A stretch of DNA of 64,000 nucleotides from Escherichia coli (GTDB taxonomy: Bacteria > Pseudomonadota > Gammaproteobacteria > Enterobacterales > Enterobacteriaceae): the NCBI RefSeq assembly GCF_002854065.1, contig NZ_CP024147.1. One strand, written 5' to 3'. A program made the translations under genes and the position numbers. The notes beneath the pieces are model-generated. The model was given only the letters and a program-made list of their open reading frames with translations, had not been told where the DNA came from and did not search any database. Below are positions 33,360 to 53,313 of the stretch, one piece after another (the first letter of the stretch is position 1; each line of letters starts with the position of its first letter).

Positions 33360-34580
33360 TTAATTTTCCAGCAAATGCTGGAGCAAAATACCGTTGAGCA
33401 TGGCGCGTTTTACCAGCGCAAAAGCGCCGATTGCCGAGCGGTGATCCAGCTCAGAACGTACCACCGGCAGATTAGTACGAAACGCCTTCAGCGCCTGAGT
33501 ATTAATGCAGCTTTCAATAGCAGGGAGCAGCACTTTATCGGCTTCCGTGATTTCTCCGGCAATAACAATTTTTTGCGGGTTAAACAGGTTGATGGCAATG
33601 GCGATGGTTTTGCCCAGATGACGACCGACATACTCAATCACTTCCGAGGCCAGGCTATCGCCTTTGTTCGCGGCTTTGCAGATAGTTTTGATGGTGCAGT
33701 CGTCCAGCGGCACGCGGCTCTGGTAGCCCTGCTTTAACAGATTCAACACCCGTTGTTCAATAGCGGCGTTGGCAGCGATAGTTTCCAGGCAGCCAAAGTT
33801 GCCGCAGTGGCAGCGTTCACCCAGCGGTTCGACCTGAATATGGCCAATTTCACCGACGTTACCGTTGCGGCCAATAAAAATGCGCCCGTTAGAGATAATC
33901 CCGGCCCCGGTTCCGCGATGGACACGCACCAGAATGGAGTCTTCGCAATCCTGACTTGCACCGAAGTAGTGCTCCGCCAGCGCCAGACTACGGATATCGT
34001 GACCAACGAAACAGGTCACTTTAAAACGCTCTTCCAGTGCTTCTACCAGCCCCCAGTTTTCTACCTGAATATGCGGCATGTAATGAATTTTGCCGCTGTC
34101 CGGGTCAACAAGCCCTGGCAGGATAACGGAAATGGCGATCAGCTCGCGCAGTTTGCGCTGGTAGCTATCAATAAACTGAGCAATGGCATTCAGCAGGGCA
34201 TGTTCCAGCGTCTGCTGGGTACGTTCCGGCAGCGGGTAATGTTCTTCTGCCAGCACTTTGCTGCTGAGATCAAACAGAGTGATGGTGGCGTCATGACGAC
34301 CAAGCCGTACGCCGATTGCGTGGAAATTGCGGGTTTCGGTGACGATGGAGATAGCGCGGCGGCCCCCGGTGGAGGCCTGCTGATCAACTTCTTTGATCAG
34401 CCCGCGTTCGATAAGCTGACGCGTAATTTTGGTTACACTGGCGGGGGCAAGCTGGCTTTGCTCGGCAATCTGAATCCGCGAGATTGGCCCGTACTGGTCA
34501 ATCAGGCGATAAACCGCCGCGCTGTTAAGCTGTTTTACGAGATCAACATTACCTATCTGAGCTTGTCCGCCTGGTGTCAT
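33360..34580 (-). CDS. nagC: N-acetylglucosamine repressor (ROK family)
   Basis: 406-aa ORF with N-terminal HTH and ROK zinc motif (CHCGNFGCLE). Confidence 0.93.
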   Translation of the reverse strand: MTPGGQAQIGNVDLVKQLNSAAVYRLIDQYGPISRIQIAEQSQLAPASVTKITRQLIERGLIKEVDQQASTGGRRAISIVTETRNFHAIGVRLGRHDATITLFDLSSKVLAEEHYPLPERTQQTLEHALLNAIAQFIDSYQRKLRELIAISVILPGLVDPDSGKIHYMPHIQVENWGLVEALEERFKVTCFVGHDIRSLALAEHYFGASQDCEDSILVRVHRGTGAGIISNGRIFIGRNGNVGEIGHIQVEPLGERCHCGNFGCLETIAANAAIEQRVLNLLKQGYQSRVPLDDCTIKTICKAANKGDSLASEVIEYVGRHLGKTIAIAINLFNPQKIVIAGEITEADKVLLPAIESCINTQALKAFRTNLPVVRSELDHRSAIGAFALVKRAMLNGILLQHLLEN

Positions 34581-34588
34581 ACTTTCTC

Positions 34589-36597
<2,009 letters not shown>

Positions 36598-36687
36598 TAT
36601 TCACCTCAATAAGTAAAATGTAAGCCGTTGGCGGATTAGGCATCTTTAAGCGTAACCTGGATTTGCGCAGACAGGCGTCAATCCGAC

Positions 36688-36712
36688 CTGATTTTTTGAA
36701 TGATAAAATAAG
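36688..36712. promoter_or_regulatory. Candidate NagC operator in the nagE-nagB divergent control region
   Basis: ctgattttttgaatgataaaataag, an AT-rich dyad of the type bound by NagC. Confidence 0.45.
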
Positions 36713-36752
36713 TTTTCTGGTTTAGCCAGTAAAAGGGAGTGATGATAACGAT

Positions 36753-36776
36753 ATTTGGTGACAAAACTCACAAAAG
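36753..36776. promoter_or_regulatory. Candidate CRP binding site between the two NagC operators
   Basis: atttGGTGAcaaaacTCACAaaag approximates the TGTGA-N6-TCACA consensus. Confidence 0.45.
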
Positions 36777-36785
36777 ACACGCGTT

Positions 36786-36807
36786 TAATTTGCGATACGA
36801 ATTAAAT
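36786..36807. promoter_or_regulatory. Candidate NagC operator (nagE-proximal)
   Basis: ttaatttgcgatacgaattaaa, an AT-rich palindrome with central CG-rich core. Confidence 0.45.
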
Positions 36808-36929
36808 TTTCACACACTCTGTAGCAGATGATCTAACAATCTGATTACAGAACATCGGCAGTACAATTTGCAGCAAAATAAAAATACGGCTTTAAACGAG
36901 CCAAATAGGGTTCTCGTAGGGGGAATAAG

Positions 36930-38876
36930 ATGAATATTTTAGGTTTTTTCCAGCGACTCGGTAGGGCGTTACAGCTCCCTATCGCGGTGCTGCCGGTGGC
37001 GGCACTGTTGCTGCGATTCGGTCAGCCAGATTTACTTAACGTTGCGTTTATTGCCCAGGCGGGCGGTGCGATTTTTGATAACCTCGCATTAATCTTCGCC
37101 ATCGGTGTGGCATCCAGCTGGTCGAAAGACAGCGCAGGTGCGGCGGCGCTGGCGGGTGCGGTAGGTTACTTTGTGTTAACCAAAGCGATGGTGACCATCA
37201 ACCCAGAAATTAACATGGGTGTACTGGCGGGTATCATTACCGGTCTGGTTGGTGGCGCAGCCTATAACCGTTGGTCCGATATTAAACTGCCGGACTTCCT
37301 GAGCTTCTTCGGCGGCAAACGCTTTGTGCCGATCGCCACCGGCTTCTTCTGTCTGGTGCTGGCGGCCATTTTTGGTTACGTCTGGCCGCCGGTACAGCAC
37401 GCTATCCATGCAGGCGGCGAGTGGATCGTTTCTGCGGGCGCGCTGGGTTCCGGTATCTTTGGTTTCATCAACCGTCTGCTGATCCCAACCGGTCTGCATC
37501 AGGTGCTGAACACCATCGCCTGGTTCCAGATTGGTGAATTCACCAACGCGGCGGGTACGGTTTTCCACGGCGACATCAACCGTTTCTACGCTGGTGACGG
37601 CACCGCGGGGATGTTCATGTCCGGCTTCTTCCCGATCATGATGTTCGGTCTGCCGGGTGCGGCGCTGGCGATGTACTTCGCAGCACCGAAAGAGCGTCGT
37701 CCGATGGTTGGCGGGATGCTGCTTTCTGTTGCTGTTACTGCGTTCCTGACCGGTGTGACTGAGCCGCTGGAATTCCTGTTCATGTTCCTTGCTCCGCTGC
37801 TGTACCTCCTGCACGCACTGCTGACCGGTATCAGCCTGTTTGTGGCAACGCTGCTGGGTATCCATGCTGGCTTCTCTTTCTCTGCGGGGGCTATCGACTA
37901 CGCGTTGATGTATAACCTGCCGGCCGCCAGCCAGAACGTCTGGATGCTGCTGGTTATGGGGGTTGTCTTCTTCGCTATCTACTTCGTGGTGTTCAGTTTG
38001 GTTATCCGCATGTTCAACCTGAAAACGCCGGGTCGTGAAGATAAAGAAGACGAGATCGTTACTGAAGAAGCCAACAGCAACACTGAAGAAGGCCTCAATC
38101 AACTGGCGACCAACTATATTGCTGCGGTTGGCGGCACTGACAACCTGAAAGCAATTGACGCCTGTATCACCCGTCTGCGCCTTACAGTGGCTGACTCTGC
38201 CCGCGTTAACGATACGATGTGTAAACGTCTGGGTGCTTCTGGTGTAGTAAAACTGAACAAACAGACTATTCAGGTGATTGTTGGCGCGAAAGCAGAATCC
38301 ATCGGCGATGCGATGAAGAAAGTCGTTGCCCGTGGCCCGGTAGCAGCTGCCTCTGCTGAAGCAACTCCGGCAACTACCGCTCCTGTAGCAAAACCGCAGG
38401 CTGTACCAAACGCGGTATCTATCGCGGAGCTGGTATCGCCGATTACCGGTGATGTCGTGGCACTGGATCAGGTTCCTGACGAAGCATTCGCCAGCAAAGC
38501 GGTGGGTGACGGTGTGGCGGTGAAACCGACAGATAAAATCGTCGTATCACCAGCCGCAGGGACAATCGTGAAAATCTTCAACACCAACCACGCGTTCTGT
38601 CTGGAAACCGATAAAGGCGCGGAGATCGTCGTCCATATGGGTATCGACACCGTAGCGCTGGAAGGTAAAGGCTTTAAACGTCTGGTGGAAGAGGGCGCGC
38701 AGGTAAGCGCAGGACAACCGATTCTGGAAATGGATCTGGATTACCTGAACGCTAACGCCCGTTCGATGATTAGCCCGGTGGTTTGCAGCAATATCGACGA
38801 TTTCAGCGGCCTTATCATTAAAGCTCAGGGGCATGTTGTGGCGGGTCAAACGCCGCTGTATGAAATCAAAAAGTAA
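36930..38876 (+). CDS. nagE: PTS N-acetylglucosamine-specific EIICBA
   Basis: 648-aa ORF: polytopic EIIC, EIIB cysteine motif (CITRLRL), C-terminal EIIA domain. Confidence 0.94.
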   Translation: MNILGFFQRLGRALQLPIAVLPVAALLLRFGQPDLLNVAFIAQAGGAIFDNLALIFAIGVASSWSKDSAGAAALAGAVGYFVLTKAMVTINPEINMGVLAGIITGLVGGAAYNRWSDIKLPDFLSFFGGKRFVPIATGFFCLVLAAIFGYVWPPVQHAIHAGGEWIVSAGALGSGIFGFINRLLIPTGLHQVLNTIAWFQIGEFTNAAGTVFHGDINRFYAGDGTAGMFMSGFFPIMMFGLPGAALAMYFAAPKERRPMVGGMLLSVAVTAFLTGVTEPLEFLFMFLAPLLYLLHALLTGISLFVATLLGIHAGFSFSAGAIDYALMYNLPAASQNVWMLLVMGVVFFAIYFVVFSLVIRMFNLKTPGREDKEDEIVTEEANSNTEEGLNQLATNYIAAVGGTDNLKAIDACITRLRLTVADSARVNDTMCKRLGASGVVKLNKQTIQVIVGAKAESIGDAMKKVVARGPVAAASAEATPATTAPVAKPQAVPNAVSIAELVSPITGDVVALDQVPDEAFASKAVGDGVAVKPTDKIVVSPAAGTIVKIFNTNHAFCLETDKGAEIVVHMGIDTVALEGKGFKRLVEEGAQVSAGQPILEMDLDYLNANARSMISPVVCSNIDDFSGLIIKAQGHVVAGQTPLYEIKK

Positions 38877-40822: not shown

Positions 40823-40997
40823 TGGCCGGGTGAAGCGTTTACGTCGCATCCGGCAAGGAACAGACAAACAGTTTCAAACGCTAAATTGCCTGATGCGCTA
40901 CGCTTATCAGGCCTACATGATCTCTGCAATATATTGAGTTTGCGTGCTTTTGTAGGCCGGATAAGGCGTTCACGCCGCATCCGGCAAGAAACATGCA
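40823..40997. repeat. BIME cluster of three REP units downstream of glnS
   Basis: Three REP-like palindromes (e.g. tgtaggccggataaggcgttcacgccgcatccggcaag). Confidence 0.7.
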
Positions 40998-41006
40998 AAC
41001 AATCCC

Positions 41007-41034
41007 AAACGCCGCGGTCTGCGGCGTTTTTTCT
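41007..41034 (+). terminator. Intrinsic terminator after glnS
   Basis: Hairpin aaacgccgc-ggtc-tgcggcg followed by ttttttctgctttt. Confidence 0.65.
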
Positions 41035-41387
41035 GCTTTTCTTCGCGAATTAATTCCGCTTCGCAATTTATCCATAAAATAAATTTAAAATAACAAAACA
41101 TAATTAAATAAAATATAACCGCTTTCATCTTGCTGGAAATTCACGCTTTTATTCTTCTGCAAGCCTTTCAACCGCAAACTTAAGCCTTGTAACAAAAATC
41201 ATCAAAATATGTGCGGTTGCTCATGTTCTTACATTCTGGTTACAGAAAGAGATTGATAATTCGCGTCGCGAAAAATAGTCTGTTCCTGTAGTCAGCGAGA
41301 CTTTTCTCAACGCTACTTTTTTAATTTTTATTTTTTTTCGCTGTTCACCTTTGGTGCAGCAATTTATACGTCAAAGAGGATTAACCC

Positions 41388-51976: not shown

Positions 51977-52150
51977 TATACTCGTCATACTTCAAGTTGC
52001 ATGTGCTGCGTCTGCGTTCGCTCACCCCAGTCACTTACTCATGTAAGCTCCTGGGGATTCACTCGCTTGTCGCCTTCCTGCAACTCGAATTATTTAGAGT
52101 ATATACTCGTCATACTTCAAGTTGCATATGCTGCGACTCGAATTATGTAG
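51977..52150. repeat. ERIC/IRU-type repeat plus a truncated tandem second copy
   Basis: Core cgctcaccccagtcacttact / atgtaagctcctggggattcac (52019-52062) matches the ERIC consensus; 34-bp segment tatactcgtcatacttcaagttgcatRtgctgcg occurs twice (51977-52010 and 52103-52136), the second joined directly to the element's right-end motif actcgaattat. Confidence 0.7.
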
Positions 52151-52361: not shown

Positions 52362-52635
52362 TTACCTTTACCTCTTGCTGTGTCAGTTGAAGGTAGAGTT
52401 ATTCTATCCATGAAATGGCTATAATCTGTGAAGAAGATCAACAAAAAACGATCATACCCCAGATAATAAATCATTAATTATGAATAGCGCCATACTAGAT
52501 GCTGTTTTGTTACTTAAATGTTGTAATTTCGTGTTTTATATTTGCGTTAAGAAATTAAACCTGCCAAATAATAATATTTGGCGCAGGTTTAATAATAAAT
52601 TAATCACTATTTAGGCGAATTTATTGAATAAAAAT

Positions 52636-53313
52636 TCAAAGCATAAACCGATAACCAATCCCAGTTTCAGTAATAAAATGGCGAGGCCGGGCCGGGTCTT
52701 GCTCCAGTTTTTGTCGCAGATGCCCCATATAAATACGCAAATAATGACTGTGTTCGACCGCGTTTGGCCCCCACACCTGGTTAAGGAGTTGGCGCTGGGT
52801 GAGCACTTTCCCGGCATTATTCAGCAGCACCGCCAGCAGGCGGAATTCAATCGGCGTGAGATGCACCTCTTCCTCACCCCGGTGAATCACGCGGGCGGCT
52901 AAATCGACGGTAACATCGGAGAATTTCACCAGCGGATCGGGCGCGGTGGTGACAGAGTGGCGGCGTAATGCGACGCGCAGACGGGCCTGCAATTCGCCAA
53001 TGCCAAACGGCTTACTCAGATAATCATCCGCTCCGGCATCCAGCGCGGCGATTTTGTCGCTCTCTTCGCTGCGTGCGGAAAGCACAATCACCGGCACCGC
53101 GCTCCACTGGCGCAGGTCGCGGATAAACTCAATCCCATCACCATCGGGCAGGCCGAGATCGAGAATAATCAAATCTGGCTTACGGGTTGCCGCTTCCAGC
53201 AAGCCGCGTTGCAGCGTTTCGGCCTCAAAGACGCGCATCCCGTCGCCCTCCAGCGCCGTGCGCAGAAAGCGACGAATAGCCTGTTCATCTTCAACAATCA
53301 GAACGTTTGTCAC
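52636..53313 (-). CDS. kdpE: Response regulator KdpE (OmpR family)
   Basis: 225-aa ORF with receiver domain and winged-helix output; overlaps kdpD stop. Confidence 0.94.
   Translation of the reverse strand: MTNVLIVEDEQAIRRFLRTALEGDGMRVFEAETLQRGLLEAATRKPDLIILDLGLPDGDGIEFIRDLRQWSAVPVIVLSARSEESDKIAALDAGADDYLSKPFGIGELQARLRVALRRHSVTTAPDPLVKFSDVTVDLAARVIHRGEEEVHLTPIEFRLLAVLLNNAGKVLTQRQLLNQVWGPNAVEHSHYLRIYMGHLRQKLEQDPARPRHFITETGIGYRFML

What the first reader, a model, noticed from the sequence alone, without database searches (positions are those of the whole stretch)
36598..36929. nagE / nagB divergent control region: two NagC-type operators flanking a CRP site
Two AT-rich dyads (36688-36712 and 36786-36807) bracket a TGTGA-N6-TCACA-like site, consistent with the repression loop described for the nag regulon. 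A similar dyad (aattaattccgcttcgcaatttat, about 41046-41070) upstream of chiP may be a NagC site as well.
Basis: partly seen in the sequence, partly recalled or inferred. Interest (0 to 1): 0.25.

Follow-up and report, generated by a model that had tools for sequence, protein, structure and literature searches.

The report
Known E. coli nagE-nagB control region

Summary
Confirmed and already known. The window is E. coli chromosome (asnB-nagDCAB / nagE-glnS-chiP-chiQ-fur), and 36598-36929 is exactly the nagB-nagE spacer.

- **Operators.** Both dyads are letter-for-letter the published NagC operators. The nagB operator is 36690-36712 (centre 36701) and the nagE operator is 36784-36806 (centre 36795), 94 bp apart.
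- **CRP site.** GGTGA-N6-TCACA lies at 36757-36772, between the two operators.
- **Matrix test.** A matrix built from seven other NagC sites ranks these two operators and the known chiP operator as the top three hits in 64 kb.
- **Conservation.** In 58 nagB-nagE spacers (window plus 57 loci) from Enterobacterales, Aeromonadales, Vibrionales and one Pasteurellaceae, operator spacing is 94 bp in 48 and 93 bp in 9. The CRP site sits at a fixed offset, while the sequence between sites and the leader lengths drift. The one exception has no nagC gene in the fetched locus.
- **Mechanism.** This fits the published NagC repression loop. The nagE operator is intrinsically weak (A/T at +/-11) and depends on the strong nagB operator.

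Interest is low.

The parts
35797..36597 (-). nagB (glucosamine-6-phosphate deaminase), first gene of nagBACD
   Evidence: NCBIfam NF001685 at 627 bits, full length; RefSeq annotation in an identical E. coli locus
33360..34580 (-). nagC, the ROK-family repressor that binds the operators
   Evidence: NCBIfam NF047937 TransRegNagC at 719 bits, above the 650 cut-off; annotated nagC
36690..36712 (-). nagB operator (BoxB), strong NagC site, centre 36701, G at both -11 and +11
   Evidence: Exact match to the published CTTATTTTATCATTCAAAAAATC; 14.4 bits with the independent 7-site matrix, rank 3 in the window; mean conservation 1.53 bits per column across 48 species
36700..36705 (-). inferred nagB -10 hexamer TATCAT, inside BoxB; inferred start about 36693
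   Evidence: Read from the sequence. A start at 36693 puts the CRP centre at -71.5. Inference plus my recollection of Plumbridge and Kolb 1991; the transcription start was not tested here
36723..36728 (-). inferred nagB -35 hexamer TGGCTA (TAGCCA on the plus strand), 17-bp spacer
   Evidence: The only conserved block between BoxB and the CRP site in the 48-species stack
36754..36775 (.). CRP (CAP) site, core GGTGA-N6-TCACA at 36757-36772, centre 36764.5
   Evidence: 9 of 10 core positions. In the 58 spacers it lies 63.5 bp (48) or 62.5 bp (7) from the BoxB centre and 30.5 bp (53) or 29.5 bp (2) from the BoxE centre; in two of the remaining three (Aeromonas L051, L057) an equally good match tied with the canonical-position one. 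Mean conservation 1.39 bits per column
36784..36806 (+). nagE operator (BoxE), weak hybrid NagC/Mlc-type site, centre 36795, T/A at -11/+11
   Evidence: Exact match to the published TTTAATTTGCGATACGAATTAAA; 17.8 bits, rank 2; A/T at +/-11 as described in PMC4288165; mean conservation 1.62 bits per column
36790..36795 (+). inferred nagE -35 hexamer TTGCGA, inside BoxE
   Evidence: Read from the sequence; inference
36813..36818 (+). inferred nagE -10 hexamer CACACT (17-bp spacer); inferred start about 36826, CRP at -61.5
   Evidence: Read from the sequence; weakly conserved, consensus CAAACT. The stringent sigma-70 scan does not report it, as expected for a CRP-dependent promoter. Inference
36930..38876 (+). 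nagE (GlcNAc-specific PTS IIABC transporter)
   Evidence: NCBIfam NF007608 at 1448 bits; annotation
   Evidence: Exact match to PMC3098098 Table 1; top matrix hit in the window at 20.9-22.6 bits; identical in 23 of 28 loci and one substitution in the other five
41032..41054 (.). E. coli counterpart of a conserved distal NagC-like site upstream of chiP (TCTGCTTTTCTTCGCGAATTAAT); right half intact, left arm degenerate
   Evidence: 223 bp upstream of the proximal centre. In other species the element nnnnATTCGCgnnGCGAATTAAT lies 221-237 bp upstream in 20 of 28 loci, at 6.7-19 bits. The E. coli copy scores only 7.1 bits. Binding not tested
   Evidence: TT/AA at +/-5,6 is present, but the central CG pattern is out of phase by 1 bp. 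It scores -9.0 bits in this register and 9.7 bits one base to the right, where TT/AA is lost. Seen only in the two Escherichia sequences

Best explanation
This is the divergent nagE / nagBACD control region of E. coli.

- **Repression.** Without GlcNAc, NagC (encoded four kb away in the same operon) binds the strong nagB operator at 36690-36712. That operator covers the nagB -10 and start. Through a DNA loop of about nine helical turns (94 bp centre to centre), NagC also binds cooperatively to the intrinsically weak nagE operator at 36784-36806. That operator covers the nagE -35. Both promoters are shut together.
- **Activation.** cAMP-CRP binds at 36754-36775 inside the loop. It lies about six turns from one operator and about three from the other. 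After induction it activates both weak promoters from class I positions (about -61.5 for nagE, -71.5 for nagB).
- **Induction.** GlcNAc-6-phosphate releases NagC.

Shown here: the identity of the sites, their statistical standing, their spacing and their conservation. Taken from the literature: NagC and CRP binding, the loop requirement and the inducer. Inferred: the exact hexamers and transcription starts.
For: - **Gene identities:**. The spacer matched in 5424 of 5426 complete E. coli genomes, at 99% identity or more in 5409.
- **Operators:** both are letter-perfect copies of the published sites.
- **Independent matrix:** the 7-site matrix ranks the three known operators 1-2-3 in 64 kb, and the next best hit is 12.0 bits.
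- **Invariant positions:** TT/AA at +/-5,6 is present in both. The nagB operator has G/G at +/-11 (the high-affinity NagC type). The nagE operator has T/A, exactly the atypical feature said to make it loop-dependent (PMC4288165).
- **Spacing:** 94 bp, the same as in MG1655 coordinates.
- **Conservation:** across 58 spacers, spacing is 94 bp in 48 and 93 bp in 9. The CRP site is at a fixed offset. The distance from BoxB to the nagB ATG ranges from 64 to 270 bp, and from BoxE to the nagE ATG from 93 to 185 bp. Conservation peaks on the three sites and the nagB -35, and is low between them.
- **Negative control:** the single exception, Bisgaardia (L060), has no nagC hit in the fetched locus.
- **Literature:** looping at nagE-B is stated in PMC4288165 and PMC5401889.
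Against: - No binding, looping or transcription start was measured here. The primary footprinting papers (Plumbridge and Kolb 1991, 1993, 1995, 1998; Plumbridge 2001) were not readable in the held library. The -61.5/-71.5 assignment and the 133-bp distance between starts therefore rest on my recollection and on geometry.
- The CRP core alone is not significant in 64 kb.
- The stringent promoter scan does not find either promoter.
- PMC4288165 writes the nagE operator as '-11A,+11T', whereas the plus strand reads T at -11 and A at +11. Either way it is an A/T pair.
Confidence: 0.95

Rival explanations
1. The dyads are Mlc operators, or are shared by Mlc and NagC, so the glucose regulator Mlc rather than NagC controls nagE.
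For: The nagE operator has A/T at +/-11, the hallmark of Mlc sites. The NagC and Mlc logos are otherwise indistinguishable (PMC4288165). A/T at +/-11 of this operator is conserved in the 57 spacers that have the operator pair.
Against: - The nagB operator has G/G at +/-11, the NagC type.
- PMC4288165 states there is no cross-regulation at physiological protein levels. It also states that the nagE operator is preferentially regulated by NagC when the nagB operator is present.
- nagC is encoded in the operon.
Confidence: 0.03
2. The two operators act independently by simple promoter occlusion, and no loop is involved.
For: Each operator overlaps a core promoter element (-10/+1 of nagB, -35 of nagE). 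Occlusion alone could therefore repress.
Against: - The literature states that a single wild-type nagE operator is not regulated by NagC and needs the nagB operator (PMC4288165).
- The 93/94-bp spacing is held in 57 of 58 spacers, while the sequence between the sites and the flanking lengths drift. Independent sites would not require this. One caveat: the shared CRP site, serving two promoters, also constrains the distances.
Confidence: 0.04
3. The dyads are chance A+T-rich symmetry in a promoter region, with no regulatory role.
For: The spacer is 62% A+T, and such DNA produces more matrix hits.
Against: Even on a 65-70% A+T background, the chance of hits this strong in 332 bp is about 0.015-0.03 and 0.002-0.003. 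The sites are also identical to experimentally compiled operators and conserved across three orders.
Confidence: 0.005

Closest known systems
E. coli K-12 nagE-nagBACD regulatory region (BoxE, BoxB, CAP site; Plumbridge and Kolb)
   Same: It is the same locus. Both 23-bp operators are identical, the 94-bp spacing is the same, the CRP site lies between them, and nagC sits in the operon.
   Different: Nothing in the control region differs. The strain is not MG1655: the distance from the nagE operator to the chiP operator is 4471 bp here, against 4405 bp from the FITBAR MG1655 coordinates.
Other two-operator NagC targets (chb, glmU, fimB) and the gal and lac repression loops
   Same: Cooperative binding of one repressor to two separated operators, with looping; CRP is also involved (PMC5401889).
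   Different: Here the loop is short (94 bp) and encloses the CRP site. It closes two divergent promoters at once, and one operator is deliberately weak.
Mlc operators (ptsG, ptsHI, manX, malT, mlc)
   Same: The same 23-bp quasi-palindrome with TT/AA at +/-5,6. The nagE operator shares the A/T at +/-11 (PMC4288165).
   Different: The nagB operator has G/G at +/-11, and regulation in vivo is by NagC.

Membership tests
NagC/Mlc (ROK repressor) operator | 23-bp quasi-palindrome with invariant TT at -6,-5 and AA at +5,+6 | tested here: met
   BoxB has TT at 36695-96 and AA at 36706-07 around centre 36701. BoxE has TT at 36789-90 and AA at 36800-01 around centre 36795. The rule comes from PMC4288165.
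NagC/Mlc (ROK repressor) operator | High score with a matrix built from independent known NagC sites | tested here: met
   14.4 and 17.8 bits, ranks 3 and 2 of 64 kb. 0.29 hits of at least 14.4 bits are expected per 64 kb.
NagC/Mlc (ROK repressor) operator | Identity with experimentally defined operators | tested here: met
   Exact string matches to the nagB and nagE entries of PMC3098098 Table 1.
High-affinity NagC site (as opposed to Mlc site) | C or G at positions -11 and +11 | tested here: met
   BoxB has G and G. This row refers to BoxB only.
High-affinity NagC site (as opposed to Mlc site) | C or G at +/-11, applied to the nagE operator | tested here: not met
   BoxE has T and A. This is the documented peculiarity of the wild-type nagE operator, which is weak and loop-dependent (PMC4288165). 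It is therefore a NagC-regulated site of hybrid type, not a stand-alone high-affinity NagC site.
Repression loop between two operators | Two operators on the same helical face at a conserved distance | tested here: met
   94 bp is 8.95 turns at 10.5 bp per turn. Spacing is 94 bp in 48 and 93 bp in 9 of 58 spacers, while the leader lengths vary 64-270 and 93-185 bp.
Repression loop between two operators | Repression lost when one operator is removed or the phase is shifted | not testable with these tools
   Stated in the literature (PMC4288165; PMC5401889; title of Plumbridge and Kolb 1993).
CRP class I activator site | Match to TGTGA-N6-TCACA | tested here: met
   9 of 10 positions at 36757-36772. 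Alone it is at chance level in 64 kb, but it is conserved at a fixed offset in 55-56 of 58 spacers.
CRP class I activator site | Centre near -61.5, -71.5 and similar positions relative to the transcription start | tested here: inconclusive
   The hexamers read from the sequence give starts at about 36826 and 36693, hence -61.5 and -71.5. No start-site data were available.
   -9.0 bits in the TT/AA register, and present only in Escherichia. The known operator is at 41255-41277 (22.6 bits). The conserved distal element maps to 41032-41054.

The most novel reading that the evidence does not exclude
The least ordinary reading concerns chiP, not nagE-B.

Many Enterobacterales carry a conserved second, distal NagC-like operator (nnnnATTCGCgnnGCGAATTAAT). 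In 20 of 28 loci it lies 221-237 bp upstream of the near-invariant proximal chiP operator. The distances fall into two classes about one helical turn apart (221-226 and 233-237 bp). This suggests a second NagC loop.

I could not read Plumbridge et al. 2014. The label 'ybfM proximal' in PMC3098098 implies that a distal site was already known to those authors, so this may not be new.
Probability: 0.15. Interest if true: 0.3.

Novelty: already known. Interest (0 to 1): 0.08.

Why it matters
It matters little as a discovery. The nagE-B loop has been a textbook example of short-range repression looping with an enclosed CRP site since the early 1990s.

The check is useful as a calibration.

The comparative data add a clean illustration that the loop geometry is what selection holds constant:

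- The 93/94-bp spacing is kept.
- The CRP offsets are fixed.
- The weak A/T at +/-11 of the nagE operator is kept.
- All of this holds across Enterobacterales, Aeromonadales and Vibrionales, even where nagE itself has been replaced by a 55%-identical allele.

Tried and rejected
- **Primary papers.** I tried to read PMC29661, PMC2446801, PMC147383 and PubMed 24593230. None is held, so the footprint boundaries, transcription starts and any chiP distal-site data could not be quoted.
- **Rfam.** A permissive scan of 36300-37200 gave only a snoRNA match at E = 0.64, which is chance. No structured RNA explains the region.
- **Promoter scan.** The stringent sigma-70 scan finds neither nag promoter. 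It reports only a hit on the minus strand (first hexamer at 36624, second hexamer ending at 36596) that abuts the nagB start codon, at chance frequency.
- **CRP core.** Its window-wide significance is not above chance. I therefore relied on positional conservation.
- **Background simulation.** A Markov-chain simulation timed out. I replaced it with an exact score-distribution calculation.
Rejected as the best candidate on matrix score and lack of conservation.
- **Weaker matrix hits.** Hits of 11.5-13 bits at 52125, 52536, 12998, 43195, 5180 and 36595 are at the frequency expected by chance. I did not pursue them.

Full report
**What the window is.** The ORFs around the finding are asnB, nagD, nagC, nagA and nagB on the minus strand, and nagE, glnS, chiP, chiQ on the plus strand, followed by fur. 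All match NCBIfam equivalog models above their cut-offs, except the chiQ ORF, which had no NCBIfam match and is identified from RefSeq annotation, and the asnB ORF, whose listed start lies 78 codons upstream of where the model match begins. The 332-bp interval 36598-36929 is exactly the spacer between the nagB and nagE start codons. It matched in 5424 of 5426 complete E. coli genomes, at 99% identity or more in 5409. RefSeq annotation of an identical locus gives the same gene names.

- The left dyad contains GATTTTTTGAATGATAAAATAAG at 36690-36712.
- The right dyad is TTTAATTTGCGATACGAATTAAA at 36784-36806.
- Between them lies GGTGACAAAACTCACA at 36757-36772, which matches 9 of the 10 specified positions of TGTGA-N6-TCACA.

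**Identity with known operators.**

- Table 1 of the FITBAR paper (PMC3098098) lists ten E. coli NagC operators compiled from El Qaidi and Plumbridge 2008 and from J. Plumbridge. The nagB entry (CTTATTTTATCATTCAAAAAATC) and the nagE entry (TTTAATTTGCGATACGAATTAAA) are exact matches to the two dyads. The 'ybfM proximal' entry (GATAATTCGCGTCGCGAAAAATA) matches 41255-41277 upstream of chiP.
- Table 2 of that paper gives MG1655 coordinates. These put the two nag operators 94 bp apart, as in the window, where the centres are 36701 and 36795.
- PMC4288165 gives the rules for these sites. They are 23-bp quasi-palindromes whose only invariant positions are TT/AA at +/-5,6. High-affinity NagC sites have C or G at +/-11, and Mlc sites have A or T there.
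- Both dyads have TT-N9-AA. The nagB operator has G at both +/-11. The nagE operator has an A/T pair at both.
[quoted passage not shown] **Is it more than chance?**

- I built a symmetric matrix from the seven listed NagC sites that lie outside this window and scanned all 64 kb. The three best positions are the chiP operator, the nagE operator (17.8 bits) and the nagB operator (14.4 bits). The next best hit is 12.0 bits.
- From the exact score distribution, 0.29 hits of at least 14.4 bits are expected per 64 kb on a uniform background. On a 65% A+T background the chance within a 332-bp spacer is about 0.015 for the nagB-level score and 0.0016 for the nagE-level score.
- The CRP core alone is not significant window-wide (2 matches found, 1.87 expected). 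Its support comes from position and conservation.

**Comparative test.**

- One scan of species-representative genomes with NagB returned 80 loci. In 57 of them nagE lies divergently upstream of nagB. These cover Enterobacterales, Aeromonas, several Vibrionaceae, Moritella and one Pasteurellaceae.
- I took the two best matrix hits in each of the 58 spacers (window included). The centre-to-centre distance is 94 bp in 48 and 93 bp in 9.
- The best CRP core between the operators lies 63.5 bp (48) or 62.5 bp (7) from the nagB operator. It lies 30.5 bp (53) or 29.5 bp (2) from the nagE operator. In two Aeromonas spacers an equally good match tied with the canonical-position one.
- By contrast, the distance from the nagB operator to the nagB ATG ranges from 64 to 270 bp, and from the nagE operator to the nagE ATG from 93 to 185 bp. 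Indels are therefore tolerated outside the loop but not inside it.
- In an ungapped stack of the 48 spacers with 94-bp spacing, mean information is 1.53, 1.39 and 1.62 bits per column over the nagB operator, CRP site and nagE operator. It is 0.27-0.66 bits between and outside them.
- The only other conserved block, TAGCCAG at 36723-36729, is the complement of a -35-like TGGCTA placed 17 bp from TATCAT (36705-36700). This is the hexamer pair I assign to the nagB promoter.
- The A/T pairs at +/-11 of the nagE operator, and G or C at +11 (G in 54 of 57) of the nagB operator, hold in nearly all species. The asymmetry of a strong and a weak operator is thus itself conserved.
- The single exception is Bisgaardia (L060). 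It has no nagC hit in the fetched locus and no operator pair, but it keeps a CRP site. This is a natural negative control.

**Mechanism.**

- Shown here: the identity, placement, spacing and conservation of the three sites, and the presence of nagC in the operon.
- From the literature: NagC represses nagE-BACD until GlcNAc-6-phosphate accumulates (PMC10634360). [quoted passage not shown]
- Inferred from geometry:
  - 94 bp is 8.95 helical turns.
  - The CRP centre is 6.05 and 2.9 turns from the two operators.
  - The nagB operator covers a TATCAT -10 and a start near 36693.
  - The nagE operator covers a TTGCGA -35, with CACACT as -10 and a start near 36826.
  - This places CRP at -71.5 and -61.5, both standard class I positions.
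  - My recollection is that the published starts are 133 bp apart, which agrees, but I could not read the primary papers. The stringent promoter scan does not report these weak, activator-dependent promoters.

**Rivals.**

- Mlc control is suggested by the A/T at +/-11 of the nagE operator. It is contradicted by the G/G nagB operator and by the published lack of cross-regulation.
- Independent occlusion without looping is contradicted by the published failure of the single nagE operator to repress, and by the fixed spacing.
- Chance is excluded.
- No Rfam family explains the region.

**The chiP remark.**

- The quoted string lies at 41048-41071. In the register that keeps TT/AA at +/-5,6 (41049-41071) it scores -9.0 bits, because its central CG pattern is one base out of phase. 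One base to the right it scores 9.7 bits but loses TT/AA.
- The established chiP operator is 206 bp downstream at 41255-41277. It is the best hit in the window. It is identical in 23 of 28 loci from Escherichia to Edwardsiella, Yersinia and Serratia, with one substitution in the other five. Repression of chiP by NagC is published (PMC4098024; a 2026 preprint).
- Many species carry a second conserved element, nnnnATTCGCgnnGCGAATTAAT. In 20 of 28 loci it lies 221-237 bp upstream of the proximal site, in two classes about one helical turn apart.
- The E. coli counterpart is TCTGCTTTTCTTCGCGAATTAAT at 41032-41054, 223 bp upstream of the proximal centre. Its right half is intact and TT/AA is present. 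Its left arm is degenerate and runs into the T-tract that follows the glnS terminator stem (41007-41029). It scores 7.1 bits.
Whether NagC binds there in E. coli cannot be decided here.

**Verdict.** The system is already known in detail, and interest is low. The comparative result (invariant loop geometry across three orders) is a tidy confirmation rather than a discovery. NagC regulon comparisons have been published (Yang et al. 2006, cited).

Noticed in passing
window 41255-41277: The established high-affinity NagC operator of chiP (GATAATTCGCGTCGCGAAAAATA) is the best NagC matrix hit in the window. It is identical in 23 of 28 loci spanning Escherichia, Citrobacter, Enterobacter, Yersinia, Serratia, Hafnia and Edwardsiella, with one substitution in the other five. 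This is unusually strict conservation for an operator.
   Followed up: yes
window 41032-41054; e.g. L011, L018, L040, L049 glnS-chiP spacers: A second, distal NagC-like site (nnnnATTCGCgnnGCGAATTAAT) is conserved 221-237 bp upstream of the chiP proximal operator in 20 of 28 loci, in two distance classes about 11 bp apart. In E. coli only its right half survives. It may form a second NagC loop. I could not read Plumbridge et al. 2014 to see whether this is described.
   Followed up: partly
L003 3669-5684 (minus strand); L008, L010-14, L016-18, L021-23, L025-30, L032-40 and others, compared with window 36930-38876: nagE occurs in two deeply diverged forms at the same syntenic slot. One is a K-12-like form of 648-651 aa. 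The other is 672-679 aa and only 52-62% identical. Both score above the cut-off of the GlcNAc IIBC model (window NagE; L003 NagE). Their distribution cuts across genera: Enterobacter cloacae versus E. asburiae, and Cedecea sulfonylureivorans versus C. neteri. The NagC/CRP architecture is the same with either form.
   Followed up: partly
L003 (record titled Escherichia coli strain SCPM-O-B-8794): Its nagE is a mosaic. The IIC-IIB part is 96-100% identical to that of Enterobacter asburiae (L008) over the first 400 alignment columns, falling to 87-92% towards the IIB end, and the last roughly 150 residues (IIA) are 98-100% identical to E. coli. The flanking nagB, glnS and chiP are 99-100% E. coli. 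The 5' 1.5 kb of this allele has no megablast match in 5426 complete E. coli genomes.
   Followed up: partly
L060 (Bisgaardia hudsonensis), nagB-nagE spacer: This is the only divergent nagB-nagE spacer without the 93/94-bp operator pair. The fetched locus also has no nagC hit, yet it keeps a near-perfect CRP site (AGTGATATTTATCACA).
   Followed up: partly
window about 40830-41000: The glnS-chiP spacer holds several REP-like palindromes (recognised from my own knowledge of the GCCGGATG...CATCCGGC type). The distance from the nagE operator to the chiP operator is 66 bp longer than in the MG1655 coordinates printed in PMC3098098, so the window is not MG1655.
   Followed up: no
window 36595-36617: A weak NagC-like matrix hit (CATTATTCACCTCAATAAGTAAA, 11.5 bits) overlaps the nagB start codon and ribosome-binding region. 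It is at a score level expected by chance.
   Followed up: no
window 36887-36903: A short hairpin (CGGCTTTAAACGAGCCA) lies in the presumed nagE 5' leader. On the minus strand it is followed by a T-run and is reported as terminator-like, at chance frequency.
   Followed up: no
window 52125-52147, 52536-52558, 52616-52638: Three NagC-like hits of 11-13 bits cluster within 500 bp in an A+T-rich stretch. They are near the chance level, and I did not identify the genes there.
   Followed up: no
PMC4288165 text compared with window 36784 and 36806: The paper describes the wild-type nagE operator as '-11A,+11T'. The sequence printed in PMC3098098 and found in the window reads T at -11 and A at +11 on either strand. 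This is a small wording discrepancy that does not affect the A/T-pair argument.
   Followed up: yes
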